64,000 nt of DNA from Gammaproteobacteria bacterium (GCA_033344735.1 JAWPMW010000001.1:2270171-2334170), one strand, 5' to 3'. Counted from the first letter of the stretch, positions 22,543 through 60,214 are shown. The notes: generated from the sequence alone by a model not told the origin. Program-made: numbers and translations.

Positions 22543-22992
22543 TTAGTTGCAAAATTCTTCGATACTTTGATTGGCTGATGTGATGCGTTCTTGTCGTTCT
22601 TCTTCAGTCAGTTTGCGATAAAGACCGCCTTCTTTAATAGTGACTTGGCCTCTGCTTGTTAGAGAAGTAAGGTTTGTTTTCGCCTGTGCGCAATTTTCTT
22701 TTTTGATCTGATTGCTTTCGGCAAGTTGCTGTTGCTCATTTTTTTTCTTTTCACGAGCTTCACGTGAAGCATCTAGGCTTTTATTCAATTTCTTAGTCTT
22801 AGATATACTGTAGTTAGAAGCGGCAATGCTTTCGTCATCTACTAATTCAAAAGGAGTTCCTATCGGAGGCGGTGTTTGACTATAGATGGTATTTCCCGTT
22901 GGGCTGACCCATTTATATGCTTGTGCATTAACATTGCTAGCAATTAAAATTGATACCAAGGCTATCCCAACAATTGTTCCTGATTTCCACAT
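22543..22992 (-). CDS. DUF4124-domain secreted protein
   Basis: Signal peptide then YKWVSPTGNTIYSQTPPP (DUF4124 signature). Start set to internal Met (GGAG RBS); track ORF extends to 23190. Confidence 0.55.
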   Translation of the reverse strand: MWKSGTIVGIALVSILIASNVNAQAYKWVSPTGNTIYSQTPPPIGTPFELVDDESIAASNYSISKTKKLNKSLDASREAREKKKNEQQQLAESNQIKKENCAQAKTNLTSLTSRGQVTIKEGGLYRKLTEEERQERITSANQSIEEFCN

Positions 22993-23218
22993 GATAAAAA
23001 CTCCATTAGCGTAATGATTAAATTGTAGCAGAAGCATTGCTAATCCCAATGATCCACATGTCGATAAAATGGGGTGCATACGACGGAGCTGTCGATATCG
23101 GCGATAAGAGTAGCTAACAAAGCCGCTATCGCGGCCTAAGGCTGGATAAATATCAAGCATCATATACTGTGTCGAGAGTGATATACTCACAATTACACAG
23201 GTAATCCACTAAGGATCA

Positions 23219-31447: not shown

Positions 31448-31867
31448 ATGTCTCTTAAAGGTACAAAGACAGAAGAAAATTTAAAGGCCGCATTTGCAGG
31501 AGAATCACAAGCAAATCGTCGCTATCTATATTTCGCTGCAAAAGCTGATGTTGAGGGATACAACGACGTAGCGACTGTATTTAGATCAACCGCTGAAGGT
31601 GAGACAGGACATGCTCACGGTCACCTGGAATACTTAGAAGAGTGTGGTGATCCAGCAACAGGTCTTCCATTTGGTGGCACAGACGACAATCTTAAAACAG
31701 CTATCGCTGGCGAAACTCATGAGTACACAGATATGTACCCAGGTATGGCTAAATCAGCACGTGATGAAAGCTTTGATGAAATTGCAGATTGGTTTGAAAC
31801 TCTTGCCAAGGCTGAGCGTTCACACGCGAATCGTTTCCAGAAGGCTCTAGATAACTTAGACGGTTAA
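31448..31867 (+). CDS. Rubrerythrin-family diiron protein (no rubredoxin domain)
   Basis: 139 aa ferritin-like; two ExxH motifs ([10 protein letters not shown]..., AGETHEY); GGAGG RBS. Confidence 0.75.
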
Positions 31868-31946
31868 GTTATTTGCGCTGCACATTGAGAATTTACTCAG
31901 TGTGCAGCTATCGCTTCGTTAATTTGAAATTTAAAAGGACAAACAC

Positions 31947-33272
31947 GTGGCAACATCTGGTTCGCGTGAAGGTAGCTTAGAAGCTCCTACAAGACACCCC
32001 ATTGATTGGAATAACCCAGACTTTTACAACGAAGAATCACTTAATACTGAGCTTGAGCGAGTATTTGATATTTGCCATGGTTGTCGACGATGTGTGAGCT
32101 TATGTAATTCATTTCCAACTTTGTTCGACTTGGTTGATGAATCAGACACCATGGAAGTTGATGGTGTTGATAAAAATGATTACTCCAAGATTGTGGATCA
32201 TTGTTATCTTTGTGATCTATGTTATCTGACAAAGTGCCCATATGTGCCACCTCATGAATGGAACGTGGATTTTCCACACCTTATGTTACGTGCCAAAGCG
32301 ATCAAATTTCGCAAAGGTAATATTAAAAAGCGCGACAAAATTTTAAGTAGTACTGACACTGTTGGAAGTCTAGCGGGTATACCCATTGTTTCTCAGTTTG
32401 TTAACTCTGCTAATGGGACAAAAATAGGTCGTAAAGCATTAGAGAAGACTTTAGGTGTACATGCTGAAGCCAAAATACCTAAATACCACGCCAAGACCGC
32501 ACGCAAAACGTTATCTAAGAGAGCGCTTCCTATTGATATGCAGGCTGAAAATAAGGTTGCATTATTTATCACTTGTTATAACAATTTTAATGAGCCTGAA
32601 ATAGCCACCGACCTAGTGAAGGTGTTTGAACACAATAAAATTTCAATTTCTATTATGGAAAAAGAAAACTGTTGTGGTATGCCTAAGCTCGAGCTAGGAG
32701 ATTTAGAGGGTGTAGCGAAATTAAAAGATGCCAACATTCCAACTATGCTTAAGTGGATTGATGAGGGGTGGGATATTGTTGCACCTGTCCCTTCATGTGT
32801 ACTAATGTTTAAGCAAGAGTTACCTTTAATGTTTCCTGATGATAAAGATGTTCAGCGGGTTAAAGACCATATCTTTGACCCATTTGAATACTTGCATAAG
32901 AAACATAAAAACAAGCAGTTGAAAATTGATTTTAGCAAGTCGCTAGGTAAAGTTTTTTACCATGCATCATGCCATTTACGAGTACAGCGGATTGGTTTGA
33001 AAACGCGTGATGTATTGAATCTTATTCCTGATACACAATTGGAGGTGCTAGAGCGTTGCTCCGGACATGACGGCACCTATGCAGTGAAAAAAGAGTTCCA
33101 TGAAATATCAATGAAGATTTGTAGACCTGTGGTTAGCAAACTTCAGAAAGCAGAAGCAAATTACTACAGCAGTGATTGTCCAATGGCAGGCCATCAAATT
33201 TCTAATGGAATGAAGGATGATTCGGATGCGACTCACCCAATGACGCTATTAAGAATAGCTTACGGGCTATAA
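31947..33272 (+). CDS. HdrD/GlcF/GlpC-like iron-sulfur protein (two 4Fe-4S ferredoxin motifs + CCG domains)
   Basis: CHGCRRCVSLC and CDLCYLTKCPYVP cluster motifs; CCG-domain signature ENCCGMP, with a second CSGHDG variant. Confidence 0.7.
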   Translation: MATSGSREGSLEAPTRHPIDWNNPDFYNEESLNTELERVFDICHGCRRCVSLCNSFPTLFDLVDESDTMEVDGVDKNDYSKIVDHCYLCDLCYLTKCPYVPPHEWNVDFPHLMLRAKAIKFRKGNIKKRDKILSSTDTVGSLAGIPIVSQFVNSANGTKIGRKALEKTLGVHAEAKIPKYHAKTARKTLSKRALPIDMQAENKVALFITCYNNFNEPEIATDLVKVFEHNKISISIMEKENCCGMPKLELGDLEGVAKLKDANIPTMLKWIDEGWDIVAPVPSCVLMFKQELPLMFPDDKDVQRVKDHIFDPFEYLHKKHKNKQLKIDFSKSLGKVFYHASCHLRVQRIGLKTRDVLNLIPDTQLEVLERCSGHDGTYAVKKEFHEISMKICRPVVSKLQKAEANYYSSDCPMAGHQISNGMKDDSDATHPMTLLRIAYGL

Positions 33273-33287
33273 GAAAATCGAAGGGAA

Positions 33288-33878
33288 TTGATTATGCAAA
33301 AGCTAACTAAAGAAGATCTCTACTCATTAGAAGAATACTCTGCTATGCGTAGTGAGTTCCGAGCAAAAATGATTGAACATAAAAAAAGTCGTGTGTTACG
33401 TCTAGGTGAGCATGCGACAGTTCATTTTGAAGATCGTACGTTGATGCATTATCAAGTCCAAGAAATGTTACGTGCTGAAAAGGTATTTGATGCTGAAGGT
33501 ATTCAAGAAGAAATTGATGCATATAACCCGTTGATTCCAGATGGTAGTAACTGGAAAGCAACATTTATGCTTGAATATGATGATGAAGAAATTCGTCGTA
33601 AACGGTTAGGTGAATTAATTGGTATAGAAAAAACTGTATGGGTTGCCGTGGATGGCTTTGATAAAGTGTACCCTATATGTAATGAAGATTTAGAGCGTGA
33701 AACTGAAGATAAAACTTCATCAGTTCATTTTATGCGTTTTGAGCTGAATGCAGATATGGTAAAAGCGGTCAAATCAGGCACCGCGATTGCTGCCGGTATA
33801 GAACATGAAAAGTATTCTGTAAAAGTGGATGCTGTAACAGATGCAATGCGTACCTCTCTAGCGGGAGATCTCGATTAG
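33288..33878 (+). CDS. DUF3501-family protein
   Basis: ~195 aa; I recognise it as the uncharacterised family that commonly neighbours rubrerythrin and HdrD-like genes. Confidence 0.5.
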   Translation: MIMQKLTKEDLYSLEEYSAMRSEFRAKMIEHKKSRVLRLGEHATVHFEDRTLMHYQVQEMLRAEKVFDAEGIQEEIDAYNPLIPDGSNWKATFMLEYDDEEIRRKRLGELIGIEKTVWVAVDGFDKVYPICNEDLERETEDKTSSVHFMRFELNADMVKAVKSGTAIAAGIEHEKYSVKVDAVTDAMRTSLAGDLD

Positions 33879-33897: not shown

Positions 33898-34752
33898 TTA
33901 CTTGTGTGGCTTGTCTGGCTTCTTATCATAAATAAGATTTTCGCTACCATTATAAACCAGAAAAGCTTTACCTTTGGCGCGCGCTATCATGGTAACGCCT
34001 AAGTCTTTTGCTAGTTCTAACCCCATATGAGTGACGCCAGAACGCGATAACAAAATAGGTATCCCCATGTGAGTGACTTTCATAACAATTTCTGAAGTTA
34101 GCCTTCCCGTTGTGTAAAAAATTTTGTCTGCTCCTTGAATATTGTCCATCCACATTCTTCCTGATATAGCATCAGCTGCGTTATGGCGTCCAACATCTTC
34201 AATGAAACTGATAATATTGGTTTCTTTGCATAATGCGCAACCATGTACAGCACCAGCTTGTTTGTAGATCTCGTTATGTTGTGTGATATTTTTTAATAAC
34301 TCATACAATAATGACTGCTTCACTTGCACCTGTGGTAATTTATGGTCATAAAGTTTGTCTAAAGTGCAGCTAAATACAGTGCCTTGACCGCAACCTGTGG
34401 TTACAGTTCGTTTGCTTAATTTTTCTTGCCAGTCATTAATGCCCTTTCCCTGTCTTGTGCTGACTTGAGCAGTTTCTTTTTCCCAGTCGACATGAACAGA
34501 CTTAATATCAGAGATATCTTCAATTAACCTTTGATTGCGCAAATAACCTAAGGCTAATAATTCTGGATTGGTTCCAAGCGTCATTAGTGTGACCACTTCG
34601 CGATCGTCTACTTTTAATGTAAGAGGTGATTCCCCTGACACTCGCACATCACGAATGTCACCGAATTGATCACGTGCTTGCACAGCGTGGGTTGGTGCGA
34701 GTCCTTCAGTAGAAAGTGTAGGGCGCTGTAGTTCTGGAGTTGCTGCTGACAT
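33898..34752 (-). CDS. fdhD: Formate dehydrogenase-family accessory sulfurtransferase FdhD
   Basis: TGCGQG loop and EDVGRHNAADAISGR motif matching FdhD (HEDVGRHVALDKL in E. coli). Confidence 0.75.
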   Translation of the reverse strand: MSAATPELQRPTLSTEGLAPTHAVQARDQFGDIRDVRVSGESPLTLKVDDREVVTLMTLGTNPELLALGYLRNQRLIEDISDIKSVHVDWEKETAQVSTRQGKGINDWQEKLSKRTVTTGCGQGTVFSCTLDKLYDHKLPQVQVKQSLLYELLKNITQHNEIYKQAGAVHGCALCKETNIISFIEDVGRHNAADAISGRMWMDNIQGADKIFYTTGRLTSEIVMKVTHMGIPILLSRSGVTHMGLELAKDLGVTMIARAKGKAFLVYNGSENLIYDKKPDKPHK

Positions 34753-34820
34753 TAATTAATTAAGAATAGAATGCAATAAATGCACTCTAGACTGGAAGGG
34801 TATAGATATCTAGTGCTGTT

Positions 34821-36194
34821 TTAGGATATTAAGGACAACATTTCATTGACTGAGGTTATTTTTTCGCGAGGTTTTCCTTTTGCTTCGCCTCGCTCAACTT
34901 CAACTTGGTCAATAGTTTTCCACTGTTGGTAGTTAATATATTGAACGTCGCGACTATTAAGAATGGAATACACTTTTTCCCTGCCGGCTTTTACGGTAGA
35001 TTCCATATTCGAGACGTCTTCAATTAGAGCATTCACTGTACTCACAGCACAGGCGCGATTTGTTCCAATAATTCCTGAGGGACCACGTTTAATCCAGCCT
35101 GCGGTATACATTTGTGGCACGACTACGTCGTTGTCGGTGATTCGTCCATCCTGGTTGGGGAATACACCCCAGCTCTCATGGAAGGGGACGCCTGGCATTT
35201 CTACTCCACGATATCCAATGCTTCTGAATAGAATGCCTGTGTCAAGTTCATAGAGGTCACCTGTGCCACGTGCAGATTGTTTGAAAGCATCACCAGAGAG
35301 TTGATTGTGTTCAATGATGACCCGTTCTAACCTGCTATCTCCTTGCAACTCAACAGGACTGCGGAGGAATTGAAAATAACATTTTCTAGATTTGCCAGTG
35401 GGTTCACGTTGGGAATAGTTTACAAACAAATCAAAAATTTTCTTGCTGCCTGCATTGGTTTTTTCAGCAAGTTCTGCTTCACTGGCTGTATTTAATGCCA
35501 ATTCTTTTGGGTCAACTATAGGATCAGAATCTGTTAACTCACCAAATTCTTTCAATTCTTTTGAGGTGAACTTTGCTTGCGCAGGACCGCGACGACCTAT
35601 AACGTAAACATTTTTAATTTTACTGTCTGCAAGCGCGTCAAGTGCGTGTTGTGAAATGTCTGTTTCTTTAAGTTCGTCAACTGTTTTAGAAAGGATTCTG
35701 CTTACGTCAGCGGCGACATTACCCTGGCCGATAATCACAGCTGTTTCGTGTGACAAATCAAACTGCCGATCTCGGTAGTCAGGATGACCATTATACCAGG
35801 CGACAAATTCAGTTGCTGTGTAACTGCCCAGTAAATCCTCGCCTGGAATGCCTAGGCGGCGGTCAGTTTCGGCACCACAAGTAAATATCACTGCGTGATG
35901 AGAGTCTTTTAATTCATCTACGGTGATATCTTTACCAACCGTTACATTGCCAATGTAGTTGAGTTCAGAATTCTCACTAGCAATCTTGTCATACACTTTG
36001 ATGGCTTGTTTGAGTTTAGGGTGATCAGGTGCGACGCCGCTACGAACCAACCCATAGGGTGCTGGTAAACGTTCAATTAGATCAATTTCTACATGAAGGT
36101 CAGACCGGATTAATGCTTCGCTGGCATAAAATCCACTTGGACCTGCGCCGACAATTGCTACTCGTAGTGGGTTTTTTTCTGTGCCTAAACTCAT
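34821..36194 (-). CDS. fprA: NADPH:ferredoxin (adrenodoxin-type) reductase, FprA family
   Basis: 457 aa; VAIVGAGPSGFY FAD motif, LVRSGVAPDHPK, NADPH-binding GQGNVA; closely parallels mycobacterial FprA. Confidence 0.8.
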   Translation of the reverse strand: MSLGTEKNPLRVAIVGAGPSGFYASEALIRSDLHVEIDLIERLPAPYGLVRSGVAPDHPKLKQAIKVYDKIASENSELNYIGNVTVGKDITVDELKDSHHAVIFTCGAETDRRLGIPGEDLLGSYTATEFVAWYNGHPDYRDRQFDLSHETAVIIGQGNVAADVSRILSKTVDELKETDISQHALDALADSKIKNVYVIGRRGPAQAKFTSKELKEFGELTDSDPIVDPKELALNTASEAELAEKTNAGSKKIFDLFVNYSQREPTGKSRKCYFQFLRSPVELQGDSRLERVIIEHNQLSGDAFKQSARGTGDLYELDTGILFRSIGYRGVEMPGVPFHESWGVFPNQDGRITDNDVVVPQMYTAGWIKRGPSGIIGTNRACAVSTVNALIEDVSNMESTVKAGREKVYSILNSRDVQYINYQQWKTIDQVEVERGEAKGKPREKITSVNEMLSLIS

Positions 36195-36211
36195 AATTGC
36201 TACCTGCCTGA

Positions 36212-36517
36212 CTAAAATCCTAATTCAGTTTTACGCTCTTCAGCTCCATCTAACGGATCCATTTGTTCGGTAATTAATGGAAGGTCAGGAGCTTTCTCGG
36301 CGTTGATTTCAATCCATTTTTTTTGATCATCTGGCATGTCGTCTTCTTCGAATATTGCCTGCACTGGACATTCAGGAATGCATGCGCTGCAATCAATGCA
36401 AACATCGGGATCGATATACAACATCTTGTCGTCATAATGAAAACATTCCACGGGACATACAGCGACACAGTCTGTGAATCTGCAGCCATTACAATTATCA
36501 GTTACTACGGTTGTCAT
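36212..36517 (-). CDS. fdxA: 7Fe ferredoxin ([3Fe-4S][4Fe-4S], FdxA/Azotobacter FdI type)
   Basis: TDNCNGCRFTDCVAVCPVECF...CIDCSACIPECP cysteine pattern; acidic C-terminal tail. Confidence 0.85.
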   Translation of the reverse strand: MTTVVTDNCNGCRFTDCVAVCPVECFHYDDKMLYIDPDVCIDCSACIPECPVQAIFEEDDMPDDQKKWIEINAEKAPDLPLITEQMDPLDGAEERKTELGF

Positions 36518-36567
36518 AATTATGTACTCCTCACGTTACATTCAATTATCAGATTTTTTTATTGTAA

Positions 36568-37377
36568 TTAACGGTTAAAAAGTAATACTTCCCCTCGATT
36601 TAATTCGATACTATCTCCACTCCATCTATCGTAACGACCATTTATATATCGGTCGTCAATATCGAATCCTTGATCCCTTAAATGCTTTAAATAAAATCGT
36701 AGAAATACAGGGTGATATGTACAGGCATATTCGAAAGTAGGCAGCATTTCAGCATCACTGAATGACACAATGGTCCCTCGTTTCATGCCTGCACCTGCAC
36801 GGGCTCCCATTTCGCCGCAAACAATGACACTTCCAGCTAGCAAATTCACACCGGTAAAATCTCCAGCGTTTCCTCCTACCGCGATCAGGCCACGGCGCAT
36901 GGAATTGCCAGCTTCATTTTTCACATTGCCATGAACAAAAATTTCTCCGCCTAATATTCCTGTCGGCTGACCACGGTAAGCACTGCCTACCATATGACCC
37001 GCGTTACCTTTAACTACAATTTGTCCTCCGGACATCTCAGGTCCAACCCAATCGCCTGCATTTCCTTTAACGGTAATTTTGCCCCCAGTCATTGCGCAGC
37101 CTAAATGCATGCTTACGTCACCATCGATAATTACTTCACCTTGGGTCATGCCAGCGCCGAGGTATTTAACGTTTGAAGTATCCCCTTCAACGTGAATAGT
37201 GTCGTGTCCTTTACCTTTAACTGTAAAGAAATCACCTAATCGAGCAGTTTCATTGCCATGAATGACTTCAAGGTGTTCAACACCGGATTGTGATAAATGT
37301 TTAACCGTATCTGGATTAATGCACTGTGCTTCTAAAGGAACATTGGTACGAGTACGTAATGTAAGTTTTATGCTCAT
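36568..37377 (-). CDS. fwdC: Formylmethanofuran dehydrogenase subunit C homolog (FwdC/FhcC)
   Basis: 269 aa beta-helix with repeated GxGxxG (GNAGDWVG, GNAGHMVG, GGNAGDF), GltB C-terminal-like. Confidence 0.8.
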   Translation of the reverse strand: MSIKLTLRTRTNVPLEAQCINPDTVKHLSQSGVEHLEVIHGNETARLGDFFTVKGKGHDTIHVEGDTSNVKYLGAGMTQGEVIIDGDVSMHLGCAMTGGKITVKGNAGDWVGPEMSGGQIVVKGNAGHMVGSAYRGQPTGILGGEIFVHGNVKNEAGNSMRRGLIAVGGNAGDFTGVNLLAGSVIVCGEMGARAGAGMKRGTIVSFSDAEMLPTFEYACTYHPVFLRFYLKHLRDQGFDIDDRYINGRYDRWSGDSIELNRGEVLLFNR

Positions 37378-37381
37378 TACA

Positions 37382-38272
37382 TTAACCCTCTAATATTTTG
37401 TTTAAATGAAAATGATATTTGCCAAGATCACCGCCATAATTTCCTGCAGATATTAACGTAGCGCCTTTTTCTGCAGCAGTGTGCATTCCGCGCTTCATGG
37501 CTTCAGCGACTGATTCTTCATCTAGACCATCGACAACAATCTCATAAACAGCTTCAATACCATCGGGGATTTGAGTTTTGGGTGCAAAGCCACGCAGAGT
37601 AGGGCAGTACTCATCATTGGTCGATGCTATCAAGCCTTTATATTTTGACCCTACTTTACTGCCTGATCTAACAACACCTTGTGGAAATGGAAGAAAAACA
37701 CCTGAGATTTCTTTCATCGCATCGGCTGCGGCTAACGATGCGCGTAAAGTTGTTGAACGGTTGGGCCCATATATTAATAAATTACCTCCGCCCACTGCAG
37801 GTTGAACACCAAAAGAATCATCGACAACAAATTCTCCCTCCATGACTGGAATGCGCCAAAGTTTTCTATCGCCCACTTTTTTGGAGATTTGGTAGCCATC
37901 ACCAAAATAGCGTAAACGTCCGCCAACAGGGACAGTGTCTTCCGAAGGTATTCCGTTATAACAAGCGGTGGTAGGACAGGTCATGACACATTGGCCAATT
38001 CGGTCCACTAAACGTGCGCTCATATTGTCTTTTGCCATGGTGAAAAGAAGCACGCTAATACCAGGTCTCCCATCGGGAGTGTCTTCTCTTGCAATTTCAC
38101 ATTCAACCGCAGCTTCACATTTACATCGAATTACAGATGTTGCGAATCCTGTCATTGATTGAGCTGCAGCTCGCGCCCATCCTAATGTGTCAGCAGTAAT
38201 GATGACGCGGGAACCCCACATTTCAAAAGCTTCAGCAAACGTATCAACAATTTCTGTTTTTTTTATCTTCAT
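37382..38272 (-). CDS. ftr: Formylmethanofuran--tetrahydromethanopterin N-formyltransferase (Ftr/FhcD)
   Basis: N-terminus KKTEIVDTFAEAFEMWGSRVIITA... and RIGQCVMTCPTTA match archaeal Ftr. Confidence 0.85.
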   Translation of the reverse strand: MKIKKTEIVDTFAEAFEMWGSRVIITADTLGWARAAAQSMTGFATSVIRCKCEAAVECEIAREDTPDGRPGISVLLFTMAKDNMSARLVDRIGQCVMTCPTTACYNGIPSEDTVPVGGRLRYFGDGYQISKKVGDRKLWRIPVMEGEFVVDDSFGVQPAVGGGNLLIYGPNRSTTLRASLAAADAMKEISGVFLPFPQGVVRSGSKVGSKYKGLIASTNDEYCPTLRGFAPKTQIPDGIEAVYEIVVDGLDEESVAEAMKRGMHTAAEKGATLISAGNYGGDLGKYHFHLNKILEG

Positions 38273-39912
38273 GATTTTTGCGCGGGTATAAATTCATGGT
38301 CATGTAGGTACGCGTCACTTACCGCGTAGTTATCAAATCGAATTGAATAATAATCATCAAAGAACGGGCGGATAATGTCTTCAATTGCGGGGTCATATTC
38401 TTGAGTCGAGTGTAAAGTTTTGCCATAAAAATCAGTGGTAAATTCATAATCGGCAATGACGGCATGTCCTGATTTGATTACATAGCGCGGTGCGTTGAAC
38501 ATTAACTCTTTATCGTCTTGCTCGTCGTAGATAGTAATATCTGCGTCAGCACCTATACCTAGGTGCCCTTTATTTTTTAAGCCCAAACATTTTGCAGGTC
38601 CTGCGCGAGTTATGATGGCGATTTCGCTAAGTGTATATTCTCGGTCAAGCTCTCCGAGGAATGTTTTTGCCATTGCTTTTTGGTTTACGCGTTTCATTTC
38701 TTCATCACGGAAACTTTTATCCATAAGCAATTTTATTAACTTCGGATAACTCATAAATGATCCACCATTTGGATGGTCAGTCGATAATACAACCCGCCAA
38801 GGATCTTTTGATAATAAAAATATTTCTAGGCCAATCGCCCATTGCAATGCGTGCGTGTAAATATTTTCTTGGTAATTGAAAGGTGCGATACCGCAGCCCG
38901 ATTCACATTCGGTGTCTACATTGACCCACTTAGCATGGGTATAACCTTTAAGCATGTAAGCGAGTGGCGCGTCTGCTGTCATAATTGTTGATTTACCAAA
39001 CATGACCTGTCCGACATCACAAGAGATATTAGGGTGATCATTAATGTATTCGATGATCTCTCTACCTGCAGATAAAGGATTTTTGCCTACTTCGCCGGCG
39101 TAACTATTAAATTGGATATGAGCAATATGTACACGTCGATCACCAGCTGTTTTCATTGTTTCTATGGTTGTTTCAAAATTACCACTATGGCCTAAATTGT
39201 TACAATGAACATGAGGAGGGTGTGGCAAACCTAATTCACTAGCCACATCAATAAACGTATCGATAATTGTGCGCGGAGAAATTTCAAATTCATCGCTCTT
39301 TTCGTCAATATCTTTGACGTTTGAATTCTTTCTACCTTTCCATGGTTCGTCGCCACCAGGGTTCACCAGTTTGCAGGTGTAACCTTTAGAAGCATGTAAC
39401 CACCATGCTACCGCTTGAGTAAGTTCTTCTTTTCGTCCTTCTTTGATTAAATTCTGTAAGAAAATATTGTTGCCTAACAGAATGTAATAGCCTTTATCAA
39501 TTACGGGGGTGTCATGTAATTCTTCTAGTACATGGCGTGCAGCTAAAGGCGGGACAGCTGCATCAAAGGCGGTTGTGTAACCCAGAGTTGCGTACCGATA
39601 ACCTGTTGCAAAAGTTGAAGGCACAATTCCTCCTGTACCTGAGCGTGTGTGTTCTGTCGCGGGATGTGGATCTAGACGATGGTCTTCAGGTTGAAGTTTG
39701 CGCGCCAGATTAACTTTAGGGCCAGCAATATGACAGTGAATGTCAACGCCACCTGGCATGACAATATTGCCATGAGCATTGATTACAGTGGCACTATCGC
39801 TGACGGAGTCAACGATGCGACCATCTTTGACGCAAATATCGCGAACCTCTCCATCAATATTATTAGCAGGATCATAGACCTTGCCATTCGCAATACGAAG
39901 CTCGTTTGTCAT
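38269..39912 (-). CDS. fwdA: Formylmethanofuran dehydrogenase subunit A homolog (amidohydrolase; FwdA/FhcA)
   Basis: 547 aa; ANGKVYDPANNIDGEVRDICVKDGRIV; metal-binding HCH motif of the amidohydrolase fold. Confidence 0.85.
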   Translation of the reverse strand: MTNELRIANGKVYDPANNIDGEVRDICVKDGRIVDSVSDSATVINAHGNIVMPGGVDIHCHIAGPKVNLARKLQPEDHRLDPHPATEHTRSGTGGIVPSTFATGYRYATLGYTTAFDAAVPPLAARHVLEELHDTPVIDKGYYILLGNNIFLQNLIKEGRKEELTQAVAWWLHASKGYTCKLVNPGGDEPWKGRKNSNVKDIDEKSDEFEISPRTIIDTFIDVASELGLPHPPHVHCNNLGHSGNFETTIETMKTAGDRRVHIAHIQFNSYAGEVGKNPLSAGREIIEYINDHPNISCDVGQVMFGKSTIMTADAPLAYMLKGYTHAKWVNVDTECESGCGIAPFNYQENIYTHALQWAIGLEIFLLSKDPWRVVLSTDHPNGGSFMSYPKLIKLLMDKSFRDEEMKRVNQKAMAKTFLGELDREYTLSEIAIITRAGPAKCLGLKNKGHLGIGADADITIYDEQDDKELMFNAPRYVIKSGHAVIADYEFTTDFYGKTLHSTQEYDPAIEDIIRPFFDDYYSIRFDNYAVSDAYLHDHEFIPAQKS

Positions 39913-39967
39913 TACTACACCCTGATTATTTTATAGTTATAGCGAGCGTTGTTAACTTGGTTTTATT

Positions 39968-41308
39968 TTAAGCGCTTGCTCCTGATTGAATGTTCCTTTT
40001 CTCTTTTACGAGTTCGTGAACCCGTTTCCTTATTCCTACTAGAATCTCCTGGTCCGATGGGAAAGGAGACTCAAATGCTGGACGTAATGTAATAGGTACA
40101 TCGTCCATGCGATAAACTGTTCCGGTGGTGTTGATGCCATAAGTTGAAGTTGCAAACGCAACATGGGCAAGCTTACTTGTGACTGTTTGCTTGGTATCAA
40201 GTGAAATGATCGGAATGCGGTGCATATGATCAATCGCAGCTTTTGGAAAGTTAGACGCCGGGTCGCTGGCAATAATCATGGCAGCATCAGCATCGCCTCG
40301 CGATAAAACATCAACAGTGGTGAATTCGCCAGGGTTAAAGCGGGGGAAGCCATGACTAAAATTAACACCAAAAGGATAACCAGTTTGCCATGAGACAACG
40401 TTGTCTGCACCGGTAACGTTTCCGTGGCCACGTACTGGTTTTGCGACAAAGTGGGTGAATTCATTCAAGTCTGATGCTAAAGAAAGTAGAGCACCCGAGT
40501 TGAAGTGACGACCTCGCGTCATGGTTAACCCCATGCCAAAAAACAAAACACCAAAACGACAGTTTTTCATTCTGTCGACAAGCTCTTCGATTGTTTGCAA
40601 AGAAACGCCAGTGATTTTTTCTATGTCTTTACTGACTTTTTTGCCTTTAACTAAAGCACGCAATGCCCACAGTAGTTCAAAATCTTTACCTGGCTTGGGT
40701 TGAATGAACTGGTCACAAACACCTGCGCTTTTTGTTTTTCTAACGTCGACCATAACTATGTGTCGATCTTTTTTGCCATTAGGAACAAACATGCCTTTAG
40801 GCATCACTGAATAACGACCAAAATGACGCGGGTGACTTTCGGCAGGATTACCACCCCAATAAATGACTAAATCAGCTCTGTTTTTTACCTCACCTAGAGT
40901 CATTGTACTTTCACCAACGCCCTGAAAAGCCATACCTGAAGGGCCATGACAAACAGAAGTGGTGGTATCGATACAGCCCTTGATTAGATCAGTTATTGCT
41001 ACAGCTTCTTTCTGTGCTTCACAGGTTGTGTCGCTAAGACCATAGGTAATAGGGAATTTAGCTTTTGTCAGTGTCTGAGCAGCTTCTTCTATAGCATCTT
41101 CGACAGGAACTTCTTTGCCATCAATCATTGCTTTCGGGCGATCATGATCAATGGTGTGTTCGAAAAACCAGGCTTTACCTAATATGCAGGCATTTTTGGC
41201 TTTAGTGATTTTCTTTTCATCCATATCAATGGTGAGATCCATGTCATCACACACACAGCCACAAAATGTACACGTTGCGCTTTCTACTGTTTTTATGTTT
41301 TCACTCAT
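39968..41308 (-). CDS. fwdB: Formylmethanofuran dehydrogenase subunit B homolog (FDH-family catalytic subunit lacking cap domain)
   Basis: N-terminal CTFCGCVC...C Fe-S motif; SVCHGPSG...GGNPAESHP aligns with the FdhF VUHGPSV...GYNPADSHP active-site region. Confidence 0.8.
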   Translation of the reverse strand: MSENIKTVESATCTFCGCVCDDMDLTIDMDEKKITKAKNACILGKAWFFEHTIDHDRPKAMIDGKEVPVEDAIEEAAQTLTKAKFPITYGLSDTTCEAQKEAVAITDLIKGCIDTTTSVCHGPSGMAFQGVGESTMTLGEVKNRADLVIYWGGNPAESHPRHFGRYSVMPKGMFVPNGKKDRHIVMVDVRKTKSAGVCDQFIQPKPGKDFELLWALRALVKGKKVSKDIEKITGVSLQTIEELVDRMKNCRFGVLFFGMGLTMTRGRHFNSGALLSLASDLNEFTHFVAKPVRGHGNVTGADNVVSWQTGYPFGVNFSHGFPRFNPGEFTTVDVLSRGDADAAMIIASDPASNFPKAAIDHMHRIPIISLDTKQTVTSKLAHVAFATSTYGINTTGTVYRMDDVPITLRPAFESPFPSDQEILVGIRKRVHELVKEKRNIQSGASA

Positions 41309-41342
41309 GATGAACGTCCACCAATTGATATAATTTTATTCG

Positions 41343-41690
41343 TTAGGGTTTAATTTTTTCGATATCGACTTCCATGTGTTTTGACATAGGCATTCCAGTG
41401 CCTGCCGTGTCACTATCCATCAATTGACTTGATGGAGGACCATAAGGGATGAACAGCATGCCTTCCGGCAAGTCTGCAGCTTTTTTCCCGATACACGATA
41501 CGATGGTTTGACCTGTATCGTTACTGAGTCTTACTTGATCGCCATTTTCCAAGCCAAGACGTTTCATATCATCTTCATTCACTTCCAGGGTGGAAGTGAC
41601 TTCAATGTATTCTTCTTTTAGTTTGCCTTTATTTAACGAGGTGCCTTGTTTGCTCGATCGGCCGGGAACCAAAATCATCTTGTTTGTCAT
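41343..41690 (-). CDS. fwdD: Formylmethanofuran dehydrogenase subunit D-like (molybdopterin dinucleotide-binding cap domain)
   Basis: 115 aa; LVPGRSSKQGTSLNKGK...FIPYGPPSS...TAGTGMP parallels FwdD (LNTGRTIWQGEAIESGK...FIPMGPWAN...THSTGMP). Confidence 0.65.
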   Translation of the reverse strand: MTNKMILVPGRSSKQGTSLNKGKLKEEYIEVTSTLEVNEDDMKRLGLENGDQVRLSNDTGQTIVSCIGKKAADLPEGMLFIPYGPPSSQLMDSDTAGTGMPMSKHMEVDIEKIKP

Positions 41691-41824
41691 GCTGTAAAAT
41701 TCAAAATCCGTTTTGGATATTTATTAGTCTTAAACTAAATGCATGATTACCGTAAATACAGGCATAAAGCAAATTAATATAAATAGTCACTACAAGAAAA
41801 AATCAGCTAAAAATTATAATAACT

Positions 41825-41851
41825 ATATGAATATAATAGAAATATTCATAT
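41825..41851. promoter_or_regulatory. Perfect 10-bp inverted repeat (ATATGAATAT-N7-ATATTCATAT) in fwd operon upstream region
   Basis: Lies in the 240-bp AT-rich leader between radA and the fwdD-like gene, ~135-160 nt upstream of the fwdD-like start. Confidence 0.35.
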
Positions 41852-41929
41852 AAATTATTAAAAATAAAAACTAAACAAATATCTGGAGTGAATAATTTGC
41901 GTACAGAAACAATGCAATCTAAGTGGGTG

Positions 41930-54235: not shown

Positions 54236-55321
54236 TTACTCGCTTGCTTCTACCTTCTTAGAGCGTATGAATCTTAATTTGTCGCCATCATTTAAACTGG
54301 TGACTTTTTGAGGAGCAGACTTTGTATTGGTTGTTGCAATTAGCTCGTCTTCTTCATTTTTCATGAAGGGATTTTTGCTTTGCTGTGTGGCGAATTCAGG
54401 TTCTTCCTTTGCTACACTTTCTTTGACATTTTGTGTTGTTAAGCGTGGAGTCAATTGCATTGCAACACGTGGATCTTGTTGCCAATGATCGTACATCTCT
54501 TCGATGATAGTGTTGGATCTAATTAAATCTTCAAGACTTGTAGTTAACTGACGCTTAGCTAATGCAGCTTTTTCTTTCTCAATTCTGCCTGTATTAGCCA
54601 GCTCTTCAATGCGTTCAAGAATTGGTAGTGACTTTAGAATTAATTTAAGCTGTTCACTTAGATATTGGTTGTGTGACGGCAAAACTTGCATCCAAACGCC
54701 ATACAGTAGTTCCTTCATTTTTTCTAGAACGATACTTTCACCTGTTAACTCAATTGATTTTTCATTGCCAGAGTCCATTCCGATAATGGTAAGTTCTTCA
54801 GGATTATCAATGTGCTCGAGTGTAACGAAGCAATTATAGAGTTGTTGAATGCTTTCAAGTGTGGAAGCGATTTTCTTAGGTGTATCTTTGGTATTTTCAT
54901 CTGCCAGCAACAAAATAGAAATGGTTTCATCTTCGCCAGTCAGTGTTGTAAGTTCATCGTGGCCTATAGAGATTACTTTTTGAAAGTATCCAAGACTTGA
55001 ACGCAATCTACGTAAATTGCTAAAAATGCTTTTAAGCAACTCTGGTTGATCTGTTGAAATTAGTTTTGGCCAGTTCTTGGGGTCATTTAAGTAATGCAAA
55101 TCTAGTTGCTTAAGAACTTCTTTCTCTGCGTCTGATAGCTTGCTGGTTGAAATAGAAAATTTGTTGAGCGCTGCTAAAAGGTCACCAACATTAGGGATTT
55201 TCTTCCCTTGTTTGCTTAATGCAAGAATGCGGACATGCAATCGTTCAAGCAGCTCGCTGTCGGAAATGGCCTGTTGGATTTTATCGGTTGTATCTATTAG
55301 TTGTTTACGTCGCATAGTCAT
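54236..55321 (-). CDS. Hypothetical alpha-helical protein (361 aa), no recognisable domain
   Basis: Long ORF with good coding character; acidic/low-complexity C-terminus; converges on hslR. Confidence 0.5.
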   Translation of the reverse strand: MTMRRKQLIDTTDKIQQAISDSELLERLHVRILALSKQGKKIPNVGDLLAALNKFSISTSKLSDAEKEVLKQLDLHYLNDPKNWPKLISTDQPELLKSIFSNLRRLRSSLGYFQKVISIGHDELTTLTGEDETISILLLADENTKDTPKKIASTLESIQQLYNCFVTLEHIDNPEELTIIGMDSGNEKSIELTGESIVLEKMKELLYGVWMQVLPSHNQYLSEQLKLILKSLPILERIEELANTGRIEKEKAALAKRQLTTSLEDLIRSNTIIEEMYDHWQQDPRVAMQLTPRLTTQNVKESVAKEEPEFATQQSKNPFMKNEEDELIATTNTKSAPQKVTSLNDGDKLRFIRSKKVEASE

Positions 55322-55662: not shown

Positions 55663-56286
55663 TTAGCTGATGGTGAAGCGCACAATAAAGTCTTTATCAA
55701 TATTGGAAGGTTTACCTAAACTTAGGACACCTGATCCGCTGAGGATGCATTCGTCACGACAAATGTGAGTGGTGCGCCCATCGTCGAAATCGATGTAAGT
55801 TCCATTAAAACTATGATCGCAGAAGTAGAATTGGCCGTTACGCCATTCTAGCCGACCATGACGGCGTGAGGAGAAGCGATTTAATATCACCAAATCACAA
55901 TTTTGATCTCTTCCTAGGCTACAACGAGGTTCCTGTACTGATAACGAAATTTTCCACTTTTGAAATGATAATTCCATATTTTGCACAAGCGAGGTGGATG
56001 TTTCTAATGTAGGAATGGCCGCGTTTGTGAGGTCATTATCTCGAAGAATAGAAGGTAACTCAGGTGCTGTGTCTGAGTTATCTAGAATTTCTTTATCGCT
56101 GGCTCTACGGCCTGATATCTGGGCCTGCTCTTTTTGGTTTTCTGCATCATCGCGGATATCAATAGACATGCGACGATTTTTTGTGACGAGCACGCCTGTA
56201 CTATCCACGAATGGATAGGTTGGTCGTTTTCCCCATTTTCGACGCTCTGCAGGCTTTTCGTCAGATTTGAATTGTTTTTGAGACAT
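55663..56286 (-). CDS. FHA-domain protein (paralog 1) with N-terminal Arg-rich YPF-DS motif
   Basis: C-terminal FHA signature (LGRDQNCDLVIL...SRRHGRL...NGTYID); N-terminal RRKWGKRPTYPFVDSTGVLVTKNRR. Confidence 0.7.
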   Translation of the reverse strand: MSQKQFKSDEKPAERRKWGKRPTYPFVDSTGVLVTKNRRMSIDIRDDAENQKEQAQISGRRASDKEILDNSDTAPELPSILRDNDLTNAAIPTLETSTSLVQNMELSFQKWKISLSVQEPRCSLGRDQNCDLVILNRFSSRRHGRLEWRNGQFYFCDHSFNGTYIDFDDGRTTHICRDECILSGSGVLSLGKPSNIDKDFIVRFTIS

Positions 56287-56410
56287 GCGCTGAAGTATGA
56301 ATCAAGCCGAAAAAAACTGCATGAGCAATAAAACAAAAAGCCGAAGAACGGTTAAATGTAGCCGATAAATTTAGCTTAAATTTAGAAGTAGCTTTAGACG
56401 AGTTTAATTG

Positions 56411-56932
56411 CTAACCAATGAAGAAGTGGATTAAGTCACTTTCTGAGTGATCTAAAGGTACGCCGAGACTAATAACGCCACTCCCTTTAACGGCTACTTT
56501 GCCTTTAGTTATAAAGGTTTCACCATCATCATTTTTAATGTAGGTGCCGTTAATGCTGTCATCCTCTAGGTAATATGCGCCGTCCTCAAAATATAGCCTT
56601 GCATGTTGGCGTGAGACGAATCTAGAGGAGAAACTCGCTAAGCAATCAGAGGATCGCCCTATCCATACATTATCATCTTCACGTTTGATCTCATGGATCT
56701 CGTCCTGAAACCAAATGAATAGACGTTTATTGCCTAGTTCCCCGTCGATATTGCCGATTTCTTGTTTGGCAGGTTCTTCTAGAGTGATATTGTTTAGTCG
56801 ACGCTCAGGTATGAATCTGCGGTCCTGCCTGACTAGAGTGTCATCAGAGTCGAAAAACGGATACAAAGGCGTCGCAATCATAGTGCGACGATCTTCAGAA
56901 CTTCTACGTTCTTGAGTAATCACTGTTGACAC
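56411..56932 (-). CDS. FHA-domain protein (paralog 2) with N-terminal Arg-rich YPF-DS motif
   Basis: C-terminal FHA (IGRSSDCLASFSSRFVSRQHARL...INGTYIKNDDG); N-terminal DRRTMIATPLYPFFDSDDTLVRQDRR; GTG start with GGGGA RBS. Confidence 0.7.
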   Translation of the reverse strand: MSTVITQERRSSEDRRTMIATPLYPFFDSDDTLVRQDRRFIPERRLNNITLEEPAKQEIGNIDGELGNKRLFIWFQDEIHEIKREDDNVWIGRSSDCLASFSSRFVSRQHARLYFEDGAYYLEDDSINGTYIKNDDGETFITKGKVAVKGSGVISLGVPLDHSESDLIHFFIG

Positions 56933-59803: not shown

Positions 59804-60214
59804 ATGTCGGAGAATGCAAAACAAGGTAAAACTTTAGAAGAACGAATAAAGTCACTTGAAACTCTGCAACGCAATACGCGCATTGCTATTATTATCTTGG
59901 TTGGTTATTCAATCTACGATGTAATTTCAGTTGATAGCGGCGAGGATATTGTGTTCGCGCGAAAAGTTAAGGCGCTTGAGTTCCAGTTAATTGATGGACA
60001 AGGTGGAGAATATGGGAGTTGGAAAGTCCCTGAAAAGTCAGCTGCAGCATTAGTGATACAAAGCACTAATGGTAATCGTATGACAATGACTGCTAATGAA
60101 ATGAAGTTTACTAGCGACCGGATCAATCCATACCCAAGAATGACATTGGATGATCGGGGCATTCGCATACATGAAAATACAAATTCAGCATCAGCCGACA
60201 CCGATGCTGAATAA
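59804..60214 (+). CDS. Hypothetical protein with single TM segment (136 aa)
   Basis: GGAGG RBS; one hydrophobic helix (IAIIILVGYSIY); no known domain. Confidence 0.45.
   Translation: MSENAKQGKTLEERIKSLETLQRNTRIAIIILVGYSIYDVISVDSGEDIVFARKVKALEFQLIDGQGGEYGSWKVPEKSAAALVIQSTNGNRMTMTANEMKFTSDRINPYPRMTLDDRGIRIHENTNSASADTDAE

What the first reader, a model, noticed from the sequence alone, without database searches (positions are those of the whole stretch)
33898..41690. Eight-gene cluster looks like a complete pterin-dependent, NADPH/ferredoxin-linked formylmethanofuran dehydrogenase, not the metal-free Fhc hydrolase
The minus strand carries, in order, fwdD-like, fwdB-like, fwdA, ftr, fwdC, a 7Fe ferredoxin (fdxA), an FprA-type NADPH:ferredoxin reductase and FdhD. 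In aerobic methylotrophs the known FhcABCD complex hydrolyses formyl-methanofuran to formate, and as I recall its FhcB lacks the Mo/W-ligating residue and has no FwdD partner. Here the FwdB-like protein keeps the N-terminal Fe-S cysteines and the FDH-family active-site block SVCHGPSG...GGNPAESHP. That block is read directly from the sequence and aligns with FdhF VUHGPSV...GYNPADSHP. A separate FwdD-like cap-domain protein is encoded 35 nt upstream. FdhD, the sulfurtransferase that sulfurates bis-MGD cofactors of FDH-family enzymes, closes the cluster. A ferredoxin/NADPH-reductase pair is co-encoded as an obvious electron module. Together this predicts a redox-active Fwd/Fmd enzyme coupling formyl-MFR/CO2 interconversion to NADP(H) via ferredoxin, an arrangement I do not recognise as described.
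Basis: partly seen in the sequence, partly recalled or inferred. Interest (0 to 1): 0.72.

Follow-up and report, generated by a model that had tools for sequence, protein, structure and literature searches.

The report
Bacterial formylmethanofuran dehydrogenase with ferredoxin/NADPH module
A gammaproteobacterium carries a conserved seven-gene cassette that looks like a working, metal-dependent version of the archaeal CO2-forming enzyme formylmethanofuran dehydrogenase, joined to a formyltransferase and to a ferredoxin plus NADPH reductase. Textbooks give bacteria only a metal-free, formate-releasing relative of this enzyme.

Summary
The FwdB-like protein matches solved archaeal FwdB over its full length (E 1e-100 to 1e-119). 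It matches M. extorquens FhcB only partly (E 2e-10). It keeps the four Fe-S cysteines and the Cys118, His119 and Arg288 equivalents, and a separate FwdD cap gene precedes it. In 80 related genomes, all uncultured Gammaproteobacteria MAGs, the order fwdD-fwdB-fwdA-ftr-fwdC-fdxA-fprA is conserved: FwdD in 73/74 loci, FdxA plus FprA in 50/51. In 29/48 loci a second, catalytically dead fhcB(ADC) set follows directly, an internal control: Cys/His/Arg are invariant in 72/72 module FwdB and replaced in 35/35 paralogs. FdhD is not part of the module. Close relatives have radA-fdhD-ispA with no cassette, and a 75%-identical FdhD sits in an ordinary formate dehydrogenase cluster. The best reading is an oxidative formyl-H4MPT to CO2 complex passing electrons through 7Fe ferredoxin and FprA to NADP+. 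I found no paper describing it; a 2016 review states fwdD is absent from Proteobacteria. Function is inferred, not shown. Verdict: real, a new variant of a known kind, interest about 0.7.

The parts
41691..41929 (-). AT-rich intergenic region between radA and fwdD; the likely promoter or regulatory region of the cassette
   Evidence: Promoter-like hexamers lie at 41861-41833. A block around 41785-41750 (ATATTAATT...TTTATGCCTG.ATTT) is conserved with the syntenic relative L085. The function is inferred.
41343..41690 (-). fwdD: cap (fourth) domain of the pterin-binding dehydrogenase
   Evidence: Pfam Molydop_binding 3.5e-12. NCBIfam FwdD scores 82 bits, below the 175 cutoff. Solved FwdD chains 2ki8, 8rja_D and 5t5i_D match at 3e-20 to 4e-15. 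It lies upstream of fwdB in 73/74 related loci.
39968..41308 (-). fwdB: Mo/W-bis-pterin catalytic subunit with an N-terminal [4Fe-4S] site
   Evidence: It matches archaeal FwdB over its full length at E 1e-100 to 5e-119, against 2e-10 for a partial match to FhcB 6s6y_B. C13, C16, C20 and C41 plus C120, H121 and R293 correspond to the Fe-S cysteines and to Cys118, His119 and Arg288. 76% of the positions invariant in four solved archaeal FwdB are retained.
38269..39912 (-). fwdA: amidohydrolase that hydrolyses or forms formyl-methanofuran
   Evidence: TIGR03121 scores 708 bits. The score is 494 bits to archaeal FwdA against 358 bits to FhcA. The metal-ligand motifs H59, H61, K181, H234/236, H262/265 and D379 are invariant in 67 module homologues.
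37382..38272 (-). ftr (fhcD): formylmethanofuran:H4MPT formyltransferase, overlapping fwdA by 4 nt
   Evidence: NCBIfam scores 430 bits. The best solved match is FhcD 6s6y_D at 312 bits; archaeal Ftr 1ftr scores 298 bits.
36568..37377 (-). fwdC (fhcC-like): GXGXG beta-helix scaffold
   Evidence: TIGR03122 scores 258 bits. Archaeal FwdC aligns only to residues 3-217, whereas FhcC aligns over 6-265. The C-terminal 70 aa match only FhcC residues 197-261, E 0.0027.
36212..36517 (-). fdxA: 7Fe ([3Fe-4S][4Fe-4S]) ferredoxin, the proposed electron acceptor
   Evidence: NCBIfam FdxA_Protbact scores 120 bits (cutoff 135). It matches Azotobacter ferredoxin I at 1e-31 with the same cysteine pattern. It is linked to the fwd genes in 50/51 loci.
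34821..36194 (-). fprA: adrenodoxin-reductase-type NADPH:ferredoxin oxidoreductase
   Evidence: It matches M. tuberculosis FprA 1lqt at 2.6e-109 over the full length, and bovine adrenodoxin reductase at 5.5e-98. It is linked to the fwd genes in 50/51 loci.
34767..34789 (-). Hairpin at the 3' end of the cassette, between fprA and fdhD; a weak terminator or attenuator
   Evidence: The terminator-like scan finds 9 pairs. The stem is kept with compensatory changes in the relative L085. The function is inferred.
33898..34752 (-). fdhD: sulfurtransferase for FDH-family cofactors. A backbone gene next to the cassette, not part of the conserved module, but a possible maturase for it
   Evidence: Pfam FdhD-NarQ scores 251 bits. 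It matches 2pw9 at 1.8e-25, with the Cys of TTGCG aligned to the catalytic loop. It is absent next to the module in 80 loci. Relatives have radA-fdhD-ispA without the cassette. A 75%-identical orthologue sits in a conventional FDH cluster.

Best explanation
The seven genes fwdD-fwdB-fwdA-ftr-fwdC-fdxA-fprA encode one oxidative enzyme system, a bacterial formyltransferase/formylmethanofuran dehydrogenase.

Proposed steps (all inferred from homology and linkage):
1. Ftr moves the formyl group from formyl-H4MPT to methanofuran or methylofuran.
2. FwdA hydrolyses formyl-methanofuran.
3. The formate is not released, as it is in Fhc. It passes to the FwdB/FwdD Mo- or W-bis-pterin site and is oxidised to CO2.
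4. The electrons leave through the FwdB [4Fe-4S] cluster to the 7Fe ferredoxin FdxA.
5. FprA passes them on to NADP+.

Shown here: gene content, catalytic-residue retention, and conserved linkage across many genomes. The reaction, its direction, the metal and the electron path are inferred. FdhD next door is a pre-existing backbone gene that may sulfurate the cofactor but is not part of the cassette.
For: 1. FwdB matches solved archaeal FwdB at E 4e-109 to 5e-119 over its full length, against 2e-10 over the C-terminal half of M. extorquens FhcB.
2. The Fe-S cysteines and the Cys118, His119 and Arg288 equivalents are present and invariant in 72/72 module homologues. They are replaced in 35/35 FhcB paralogs encoded in the same loci, usually directly downstream of the cassette.
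3. Of 107 positions invariant in four solved archaeal FwdB, 76% are retained in the window protein, against 42% in the paralogs.
4. FwdD is present in 73/74 loci.
5. FwdA metal-ligand motifs are intact.
6. The gene order B-A-ftr-C is the same as fhcBADC (PMC6926001). The FwdC C-terminus matches only FhcC.
7. FdxA plus FprA are linked in 50/51 loci that share no other synteny with the window. This includes one locus, L065, where the pair has moved upstream of fwdD.
8. In most genomes the module sits in an H4MPT/methanofuran island with fae, mtdB, mch, mptG and MfnD/F-like genes.
9. Thermodynamics: formyl-MFR/CO2 has E0' of -0.53 V (PMC11656701). NADP+ at about -0.32 V and the 3Fe cluster of 7Fe ferredoxins at about -0.42 V are from my own knowledge. 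Oxidation towards NADP+ is therefore downhill.
Against: - There is no biochemical, metal or expression evidence.
- All homologues found are from metagenomes or MAGs.
- There is no FwdF/FwdG-type polyferredoxin, so the electron exit route is inferred only from gene linkage.
- One locus, L067, has the five fwd/ftr genes without fdxA-fprA nearby.
- The window itself holds no other H4MPT, methanofuran or molybdopterin-synthesis gene in 64 kb. Pathway context for this organism is therefore unknown.
- NCBIfam FwdD and FdxA scores are below the curated cutoffs.
Confidence: 0.66

Rival explanations
1. This is just another Fhc formyltransferase/hydrolase isoform. FwdB/FwdD are structural scaffolds that still look catalytic, and the product is formate.
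For: The gene order B-A-ftr-C and the FhcC-like C-terminus resemble Fhc. Bacterial H4MPT pathways are described as ending in formate (PMC6926001).
Against: Cys/His/Arg and the Fe-S cysteines are invariant in 72/72 homologues at 75-93% identity. The co-resident true FhcB paralogs have lost Cys/His/Arg in 35/35. A separate FwdD is maintained in 73/74 loci. It is hard to see why genomes would keep two hydrolase sets side by side (29/48 loci) if they did the same thing.
Confidence: 0.12
2. The system runs reductively. It fixes CO2 to formyl-methanofuran and then formyl-H4MPT, using ferredoxin reduced by NADPH through FprA.
For: Archaeal Fwd works in this direction, and the enzyme chemistry is reversible (PMC11656701).
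Against: NADPH at about -0.32 V cannot drive a -0.53 V couple without bifurcation or an energy input, and no such module is encoded. The neighbouring genes in related genomes are the oxidative set fae, mtdB and mch. No mer, mtr or CODH/ACS genes were seen in any locus examined.
Confidence: 0.05
3. FwdABCD-Ftr is a real dehydrogenase, but FdxA and FprA are not its electron chain to NADP+. The ferredoxin could feed other acceptors, or FprA could serve reductive activation or an unrelated enzyme.
For: One locus lacks the pair (L067). FprA/7Fe-ferredoxin pairs serve other enzymes elsewhere, such as P450 systems in actinobacteria (own knowledge). No physical interaction has been shown.
Against: The linkage holds in 50/51 loci across genomes with otherwise unrelated flanks, and it survives a rearrangement in L065. 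Intergenic gaps are short: median 57 nt for fwdC-fdxA and 37 nt for fdxA-fprA.
Confidence: 0.15
4. FdhD is a dedicated eighth component of the cluster.
For: It is co-oriented and 68 nt downstream of fprA. The same arrangement is found in the close relative L085. FDH-family sites with a sulfido ligand need FdhD (own knowledge).
Against: It is not adjacent in any of 80 related genomes. Relatives L086 and L092 carry radA-fdhD-ispA without the cassette. A 75%-identical orthologue lies in a canonical FDH cluster. A conserved hairpin separates it from fprA.
Confidence: 0.1

Closest known systems
Archaeal tungsten/molybdenum formylmethanofuran dehydrogenase FwdABCDFG / FmdABCD (e.g. Methanothermobacter wolfeii, PDB 5T5I)
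   Same: The FwdB, FwdD, FwdA and FwdC homologues are all present. FwdB is 39-44% identical over about 425 residues. It has the Fe-S cysteines and Cys118, His119 and Arg288. FwdA has its metal-ligand motifs.
   Different: The organism is bacterial. A formyltransferase gene is embedded in the operon. There is no FwdF/FwdG polyferredoxin, Hdr or F420-reductase module; a 7Fe ferredoxin plus an FprA-type NADPH reductase stand in their place. The FwdC C-terminus resembles FhcC. The predicted direction is oxidative.
Bacterial formyltransferase/hydrolase complex FhcABCD (Methylorubrum extorquens, PDB 6S6Y)
   Same: The operon order B-A-D(ftr)-C is the same. Ftr is most similar to FhcD (312 bits). The FwdC C-terminal segment matches FhcC. 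It belongs to the same H4MPT/methanofuran pathway context in related genomes.
   Different: FhcB lacks the Fe-S domain, Cys118 (Ser62), His119 and Arg288, has loops occluding the pterin site, and has no FwdD (PMC6926001). The window protein has all the catalytic features and a FwdD gene. Related genomes carry a separate Fhc-type set beside it.
FprA / 7Fe-ferredoxin redox pair (Mycobacterium tuberculosis FprA, PDB 1LQT; Azotobacter ferredoxin I)
   Same: FprA is homologous over its full length (2.6e-109), and the ferredoxin has the 7Fe cysteine pattern.
   Different: Here the pair is genetically tied to a formylmethanofuran dehydrogenase. It is predicted to run from ferredoxin to NADP+, rather than supplying electrons from NADPH.
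F420-coupled formylmethanofuran dehydrogenase of Ca. Ethanoperedens (PDB 8RJA)
   Same: It is an FMD used in the oxidative direction with a non-polyferredoxin electron module. FwdB matches at 3.7e-112 (PMC11656701).
   Different: That system is archaeal and anaerobic, and F420 is the acceptor through a bound reductase. Here the proposed acceptor is NADP+ through soluble-type partners.

Membership tests
Formylmethanofuran dehydrogenase (Fwd/Fmd) | Subunit B with the metal-ligating Cys/Sec followed by His, and the catalytic Arg (Cys118, His119, Arg288 in 5T5I numbering) | tested here: met
   C120, H121 and R293 align with them. They are invariant in 72/72 module homologues.
Formylmethanofuran dehydrogenase (Fwd/Fmd) | N-terminal four-cysteine [4Fe-4S] site in subunit B | tested here: met
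   C13, C16, C20 and C41 are conserved with archaeal FwdB and in 72/72 homologues.
Formylmethanofuran dehydrogenase (Fwd/Fmd) | Subunit D (Molydop_binding cap domain), separate or fused | tested here: met
   Pfam PF01568 scores 3.5e-12. Solved FwdD chains match at 3e-20 to 7e-11. The NCBIfam FwdD score of 82 is below the 175 cutoff.
Formylmethanofuran dehydrogenase (Fwd/Fmd) | Subunit A amidohydrolase with binuclear metal ligands, and subunit C GXGXG beta-helix | tested here: met
   TIGR03121 scores 708 bits and TIGR03122 258 bits, both above their cutoffs. The ligand motifs are invariant.
Formylmethanofuran dehydrogenase (Fwd/Fmd) | Polyferredoxin (FwdF/FwdG) or another described electron module (Hdr supercomplex, F420 reductase) | tested here: not met
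   No such gene is in the cassette or in related loci. FdxA (7Fe) and FprA take that position.
Formylmethanofuran dehydrogenase (Fwd/Fmd) | Mo- or W-bis-pterin guanine dinucleotide content, and formyl-MFR dehydrogenase activity | not testable with these tools
   This needs purified protein, metal analysis and enzyme assays.
Formyltransferase/hydrolase complex (Fhc) | Subunit B that has lost the pterin and metal ligands, and no subunit D | tested here: not met
   The window FwdB keeps all the ligands and has FwdD. It matches FhcB 6s6y_B only at 2e-10 over residues 249-437.
Formyltransferase/hydrolase complex (Fhc) | Formyltransferase (FhcD) encoded within the operon in the order B-A-D-C | tested here: met
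   The order is fwdB-fwdA-ftr-fwdC, with fwdA and ftr overlapping by 4 nt. This is the same as fhcBADC in PMC6926001.
Formyltransferase/hydrolase complex (Fhc) | FhcC-type C-terminal segment (helix-loop-helix) that goes with formyltransferase docking | tested here: inconclusive
   The C-terminal 70 aa match only FhcC residues 197-261, but weakly, at E 0.0027. No structure was modelled.
FprA / adrenodoxin-reductase family of NADPH:ferredoxin reductases | Full-length homology to FprA/AdR (FAD and NADP domains) | tested here: met
   1lqt matches at 2.6e-109 over residues 9-454, and 1cjc at 5.5e-98. Nucleotide specificity was not tested.
7Fe ferredoxin (FdxA / ferredoxin I) | The cysteine pattern CxxCxxxxCxxxCP...CxxCxxCxxxCP, with a C-terminal extension | tested here: met
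   It aligns with Azotobacter FdI at 1e-31 with all cysteines conserved; Pfam also finds DUF3470. The NCBIfam FdxA_Protbact score of 120 is below the 135 cutoff.
FdhD sulfurtransferase as a component of this cluster | Conserved linkage of fdhD with the fwd genes | tested here: not met
   There is no FdhD next to the module in any of 80 loci. Relatives have radA-fdhD-ispA without the cassette. The protein itself is a bona fide FdhD.

The most novel reading that the evidence does not exclude
A previously undescribed bacterial enzyme system: a Mo/W-dependent formylmethanofuran dehydrogenase physically combined with the formyltransferase. It oxidises formyl-H4MPT straight to CO2 without free formate and yields NADPH through a 7Fe ferredoxin and FprA, a new electron module for this enzyme class. 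It would be a living intermediate between archaeal Fwd and bacterial Fhc, with the formyltransferase already recruited and the dehydrogenase not yet lost. It is widespread in uncultured Gammaproteobacteria: close relatives of the window FwdB in at least 557 species-level genomes, the cassette itself confirmed in the 50 best-matching loci with enough flank, including an upland-soil-cluster-gamma MAG.
Probability: 0.45. Interest if true: 0.82.

Novelty: new variant of a known kind. Interest (0 to 1): 0.7.

Why it matters
Bacterial H4MPT-linked C1 oxidation is taught as ending in free formate made by the metal-free Fhc complex, with separate formate dehydrogenases finishing the job. A 2016 review states that fwdD is absent from Proteobacteria (PMC5020050). 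The Fhc structure paper calls Fhc the only known bacterial methanofuran-using enzyme (PMC6926001). A 2024 review of formylmethanofuran dehydrogenases lists only archaeal enzymes and no NADP-linked electron module (PMC11656701).

If this cassette works as predicted, three things follow.

- Many environmental Gammaproteobacteria would have a second, formate-free exit from the pathway that yields NADPH. They come from marine plankton, sediments, sponges and soils, and include a USC-gamma MAG. That would change carbon and reductant budgets in models of methylotrophy and formaldehyde detoxification.
- It would offer an FMD from oxygen-exposed organisms for CO2-conversion biotechnology.
- It would make the proposed stepwise evolution of Fhc from Fwd directly testable. 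Many of these genomes carry the putative intermediate and the derived form side by side.

Tried and rejected
1. FdhD as part of the cluster: rejected.
2. A second fhc set, other H4MPT/methanofuran genes, a formate dehydrogenase or molybdopterin-synthesis genes in the window: none found. All larger ORFs were scanned.
3. Signs of a mobile element at the cassette borders: no direct or inverted repeats of note, and no composition anomaly.
4. Flank synteny between the window and the 80 genome loci: none, even at 88% FwdB identity. Synteny was found only with metagenome contig L085.
5. Exact look-up of the window FwdB in public assemblies: not on record. The nearest protein is 92% identical, on a 3.4 kb contig. 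The source organism therefore stays unidentified beyond Gammaproteobacteria.
6. Literature searches for a proteobacterial fwdD, for Fwd plus Fhc paralogy, or for an FprA/ferredoxin-linked FMD found no description. The library lacks most subscription journals, so absence is not proof.
7. A search for a cultured isolate carrying the cassette: all named hits are MAGs.
8. The 11-bp palindrome upstream of fwdD is not conserved in L085.
9. No structure prediction was run. Full-length E-values of 1e-100 or better to solved FwdB made it unnecessary, and it could not show cofactor binding.

Full report
**Observation**

Profile searches identify them as follows.

- FwdD-like cap domain: PF01568, 3.5e-12.
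- FwdB: TIGR03129, 520 bits against a cutoff of 328.
- FwdA: TIGR03121, 708 bits.
- Ftr: 430 bits.
- FwdC: TIGR03122, 258 bits.
- A FdxA-type ferredoxin.
- A pyridine-nucleotide flavoprotein.
- FdhD: PF02634, 251 bits.

Against solved structures, the flavoprotein is a full-length homologue of M. tuberculosis FprA (2.6e-109) and of adrenodoxin reductase. The ferredoxin matches Azotobacter 7Fe ferredoxin I with all cysteines conserved (1e-31). FdhD matches 2PW9 and E. coli FdhD, with its loop cysteine aligned. The quoted block SVCHGPSG...GGNPAESHP is present. Gene spacing is tight: 34, 55, -4, 4, 50, 17 and 68 nt.

**Is FwdB a real dehydrogenase subunit or an Fhc scaffold?**

The 446-aa protein matches five solved archaeal FwdB chains over its full length, at E 1e-100 to 5e-119. 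It matches M. extorquens FhcB (6S6Y_B) only at 2e-10, over its C-terminal half.

The Fhc structure paper lists what FhcB has lost (PMC6926001):
- Cys118 is replaced by Ser62.
- His119 and Arg288 are not conserved.
- The N-terminal [4Fe-4S] domain is missing.
- FwdD is absent.
- Loops occlude the pterin site.

The window protein keeps C13, C16, C20 and C41, and C120, H121 and R293 align with Cys118, His119 and Arg288. Identity to the archaeal proteins is 39-44%. Of the 107 positions identical in four solved archaeal FwdB, 76% are retained. The 115-aa upstream protein matches solved FwdD chains at 3e-20 to 7e-11.

**Comparative evidence**

A protein search found more than 5,900 relatives; the best 120 are 78-92% identical and come from metagenomes. 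A scan of one genome per species found at least 557 genomes with a close relative. The best 80, at 75-93% identity, are all uncultured Gammaproteobacteria MAGs. They include a USC-gamma MAG, 'Thiotrichaceae' UBA973, a Ca. Oxydemutatoraceae MAG and MAGs from sediment and other environmental samples.

ORF-level comparison of these loci gave the following.
- The order fwdD-fwdB-fwdA-ftr-fwdC-fdxA-fprA is conserved almost everywhere that enough flank exists.
- FwdD is present in 73/74 loci.
- FdxA plus FprA are present in 50/51.
- In L065 the fdxA-fprA pair has moved upstream of fwdD but stays attached.
- None of these loci shares any other gene with the window, so the linkage is not inherited synteny.

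In most genomes the module sits beside a classic H4MPT/methanofuran island: mptG, mtdB, mch, fae, mptN and MfnD/MfnF-like genes.

**An internal control**

In 29 of 48 loci with enough flank, fprA is followed directly by a second set, fhcB-fhcA-fhcD-fhcC. These proteins are 25-29%, about 45%, about 50% and 30-35% identical to the module proteins. In the 35 second-set FhcB proteins recovered from these loci, the Cys118, His119 and Arg288 equivalents are replaced in 35/35. In the module FwdB they are invariant in 72/72. Retention of archaeal-invariant positions is 42% against 74%.

Many of these genomes therefore keep a catalytically equipped form and a degenerate form side by side. This argues strongly that the equipped form is under selection for catalysis. 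FwdA metal-ligand motifs are intact in both sets.

**Mixed character**

- FwdA is closer to archaeal FwdA (494 bits) than to FhcA (358 bits).
- Ftr is marginally closest to FhcD (312 against 298 bits).
- Archaeal FwdC aligns only to residues 3-217 of the window FwdC, whereas FhcC aligns to 6-265.
- The last 70 residues match only FhcC 197-261. This spans the segment that differs structurally between FhcC and FwdC, in a subunit that serves as the formyltransferase docking platform (E 0.0027; PMC6926001).
- The operon order B-A-ftr-C equals fhcBADC.

The cassette thus combines an archaeal-type dehydrogenase core with Fhc-type formyltransferase integration. Hemmann et al. proposed that Fhc arose from Fwd by three steps: loss of the dehydrogenase, recruitment of the formyltransferase, and a methanofuran-binding site. 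This cassette looks like the second step without the first.

**FdhD**

FdhD was found next to the module in none of the 80 loci. A metagenome scan with the window FdhD gave three informative results.
- Contig L085 is fully syntenic with the window: radA, the seven genes, fdhD, DUF3501, CCG, rubrerythrin, ispA, dxs, folE2.
- Contigs L086 and L092 share the same backbone at about 80% identity: rplS, trmD, rimM, rpsP, ffh, ccsA-like, CNNM and radA. There radA is followed directly by fdhD and then ispA-dxs-folE2, with no cassette.
- Contig L090 has a 75%-identical FdhD inside a conventional formate dehydrogenase cluster: a 973-aa molybdopterin oxidoreductase, an Fe-S subunit, a TorD-like chaperone, DUF3305, DUF3306 and MoeA.

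A hairpin between fprA and fdhD keeps its stem through compensatory changes in L085. So fdhD is a backbone gene, and the seven-gene cassette lies inserted between radA and fdhD, or was deleted in the relatives. FdhD may well mature the FwdB cofactor, but its adjacency is not evidence for that. The unit is seven genes.

**Mechanism (inferred)**

1. Ftr transfers the formyl group from H4MPT to methanofuran or methylofuran.
2. FwdA hydrolyses formyl-methanofuran.
3. Formate is oxidised at the FwdB/FwdD Mo- or W-pterin site, the reverse of the archaeal two-step mechanism.
4. Electrons pass through the FwdB [4Fe-4S] cluster to FdxA, and through FprA to NADP+.

The formyl-MFR/CO2 couple is about -0.53 V (PMC11656701). 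From my own knowledge, the [3Fe-4S] cluster of 7Fe ferredoxins sits near -0.42 V and NADP+ at -0.32 V. The oxidative direction is therefore downhill at each step. CO2 reduction by NADPH is not feasible without an energy-coupling device, and none is encoded. FdxA may occupy the place of FwdG. FprA with 7Fe ferredoxin is a known redox pair in mycobacteria (own knowledge). Keeping both complexes could let a cell split formyl-H4MPT between free formate through Fhc and direct oxidation to CO2 with NADPH gain.

**What is known**

- Wells et al. 2023 counted bacterial members in the FwdB family and attributed them to transfer from Archaea, without functional analysis (PMC10100899).
- The 2024 FMD review lists polyferredoxin, the Hdr supercomplex and F420 reductase as electron modules, and only Fhc on the bacterial side.
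- JGI pipelines already label these genes 'formylmethanofuran dehydrogenase subunit B/D', so the annotation exists.
- I found no paper that recognises the gammaproteobacterial cassette, its ferredoxin/FprA partners, or its coexistence with Fhc. The library lacks most subscription journals, so this is not proof of novelty.

**Limits**

- Everything functional is inference from sequence and linkage.
- All relatives are MAGs or metagenome contigs.
- ORFs in the loci were called with a simple longest-ORF rule.
- Only the 80 best of at least 557 genome hits were examined.
- The window has no other C1 or cofactor genes, so the pathway context of this organism is unknown.
- One related locus, L067, lacks fdxA-fprA next to the fwd genes.

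**Verdict**

It is corrected in one part: FdhD is not a cluster member, and the direction is probably oxidative only. It is a new variant of a known kind, with interest about 0.7.

Noticed in passing
window 31448-33878 (+ strand): A trio of rubrerythrin, a CCG-domain (HdrD/GlpC-like) Fe-S protein and DUF3501 lies between fdhD and ispA. It is present in the syntenic contigs L085 and, in part, L096. It is absent from the otherwise syntenic relatives L088 and L092, where fdhD is followed directly by ispA. This is a second insertion or deletion difference at this locus.
   Followed up: partly
L011:16885-18162 and 34 other loci (second-set FhcB): The gammaproteobacterial Fhc-type subunit B (about 425 aa) has lost Cys118, His119 and Arg288. 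It still keeps the N-terminal Fe-S cysteines in at least 33/35 cases (three of the four sites in 35/35), unlike M. extorquens FhcB, which lacks that domain. It scores higher against archaeal FwdB (136 bits) than against 6S6Y_B (81 bits). It may be an intermediate stage of decay, or may retain an Fe-S cluster.
   Followed up: partly
L065:7664-14769: In this MAG, fdxA-fprA lie upstream of fwdD instead of downstream of fwdC. The pair moved but stayed attached to the fwd genes.
   Followed up: no
L067:335-10761: This is the only locus with enough flank that lacks fdxA-fprA. Here fwdC is followed directly by mptG, mtdB, an ATP-grasp gene, mch and a RimK-like gene. Other loci at similar identity (e.g. 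L052 USCg_Taylor, L058) end too soon to tell.
   Followed up: partly
L090:144-10628: A 75%-identical FdhD orthologue sits in a formate dehydrogenase cluster with DUF3305, DUF3306, a TorD-like chaperone, a 564-aa polyferredoxin-like protein and MoeA.
   Followed up: no
window 41750-41785 (- strand), upstream of fwdD: A block (ATATTAATT...TTTATGCCTG.ATTT..GG.AA) is conserved with L085 in an otherwise diverged AT-rich intergenic region. It is a possible promoter or operator. A perfect 11-bp palindrome at 41824-41852 is not conserved.
   Followed up: partly
window 582-11125: A type IV pilus gene set (PilB-like ATPase, pilin, PilS/PilR-like two-component system) is interleaved with two family-2 glycosyltransferases. 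A 647-aa ORF (5338-7281) and a 204-aa ORF (2563-3177) have no Pfam match.
   Followed up: no
window 22543-23190, 54236-55321, 59804-60214, 60229-61752: Four ORFs of 215, 361, 136 and 507 aa have no Pfam match at the thresholds used (1e-5 or 1e-6). Two FHA-domain proteins lie nearby at 55663-56932.
   Followed up: no
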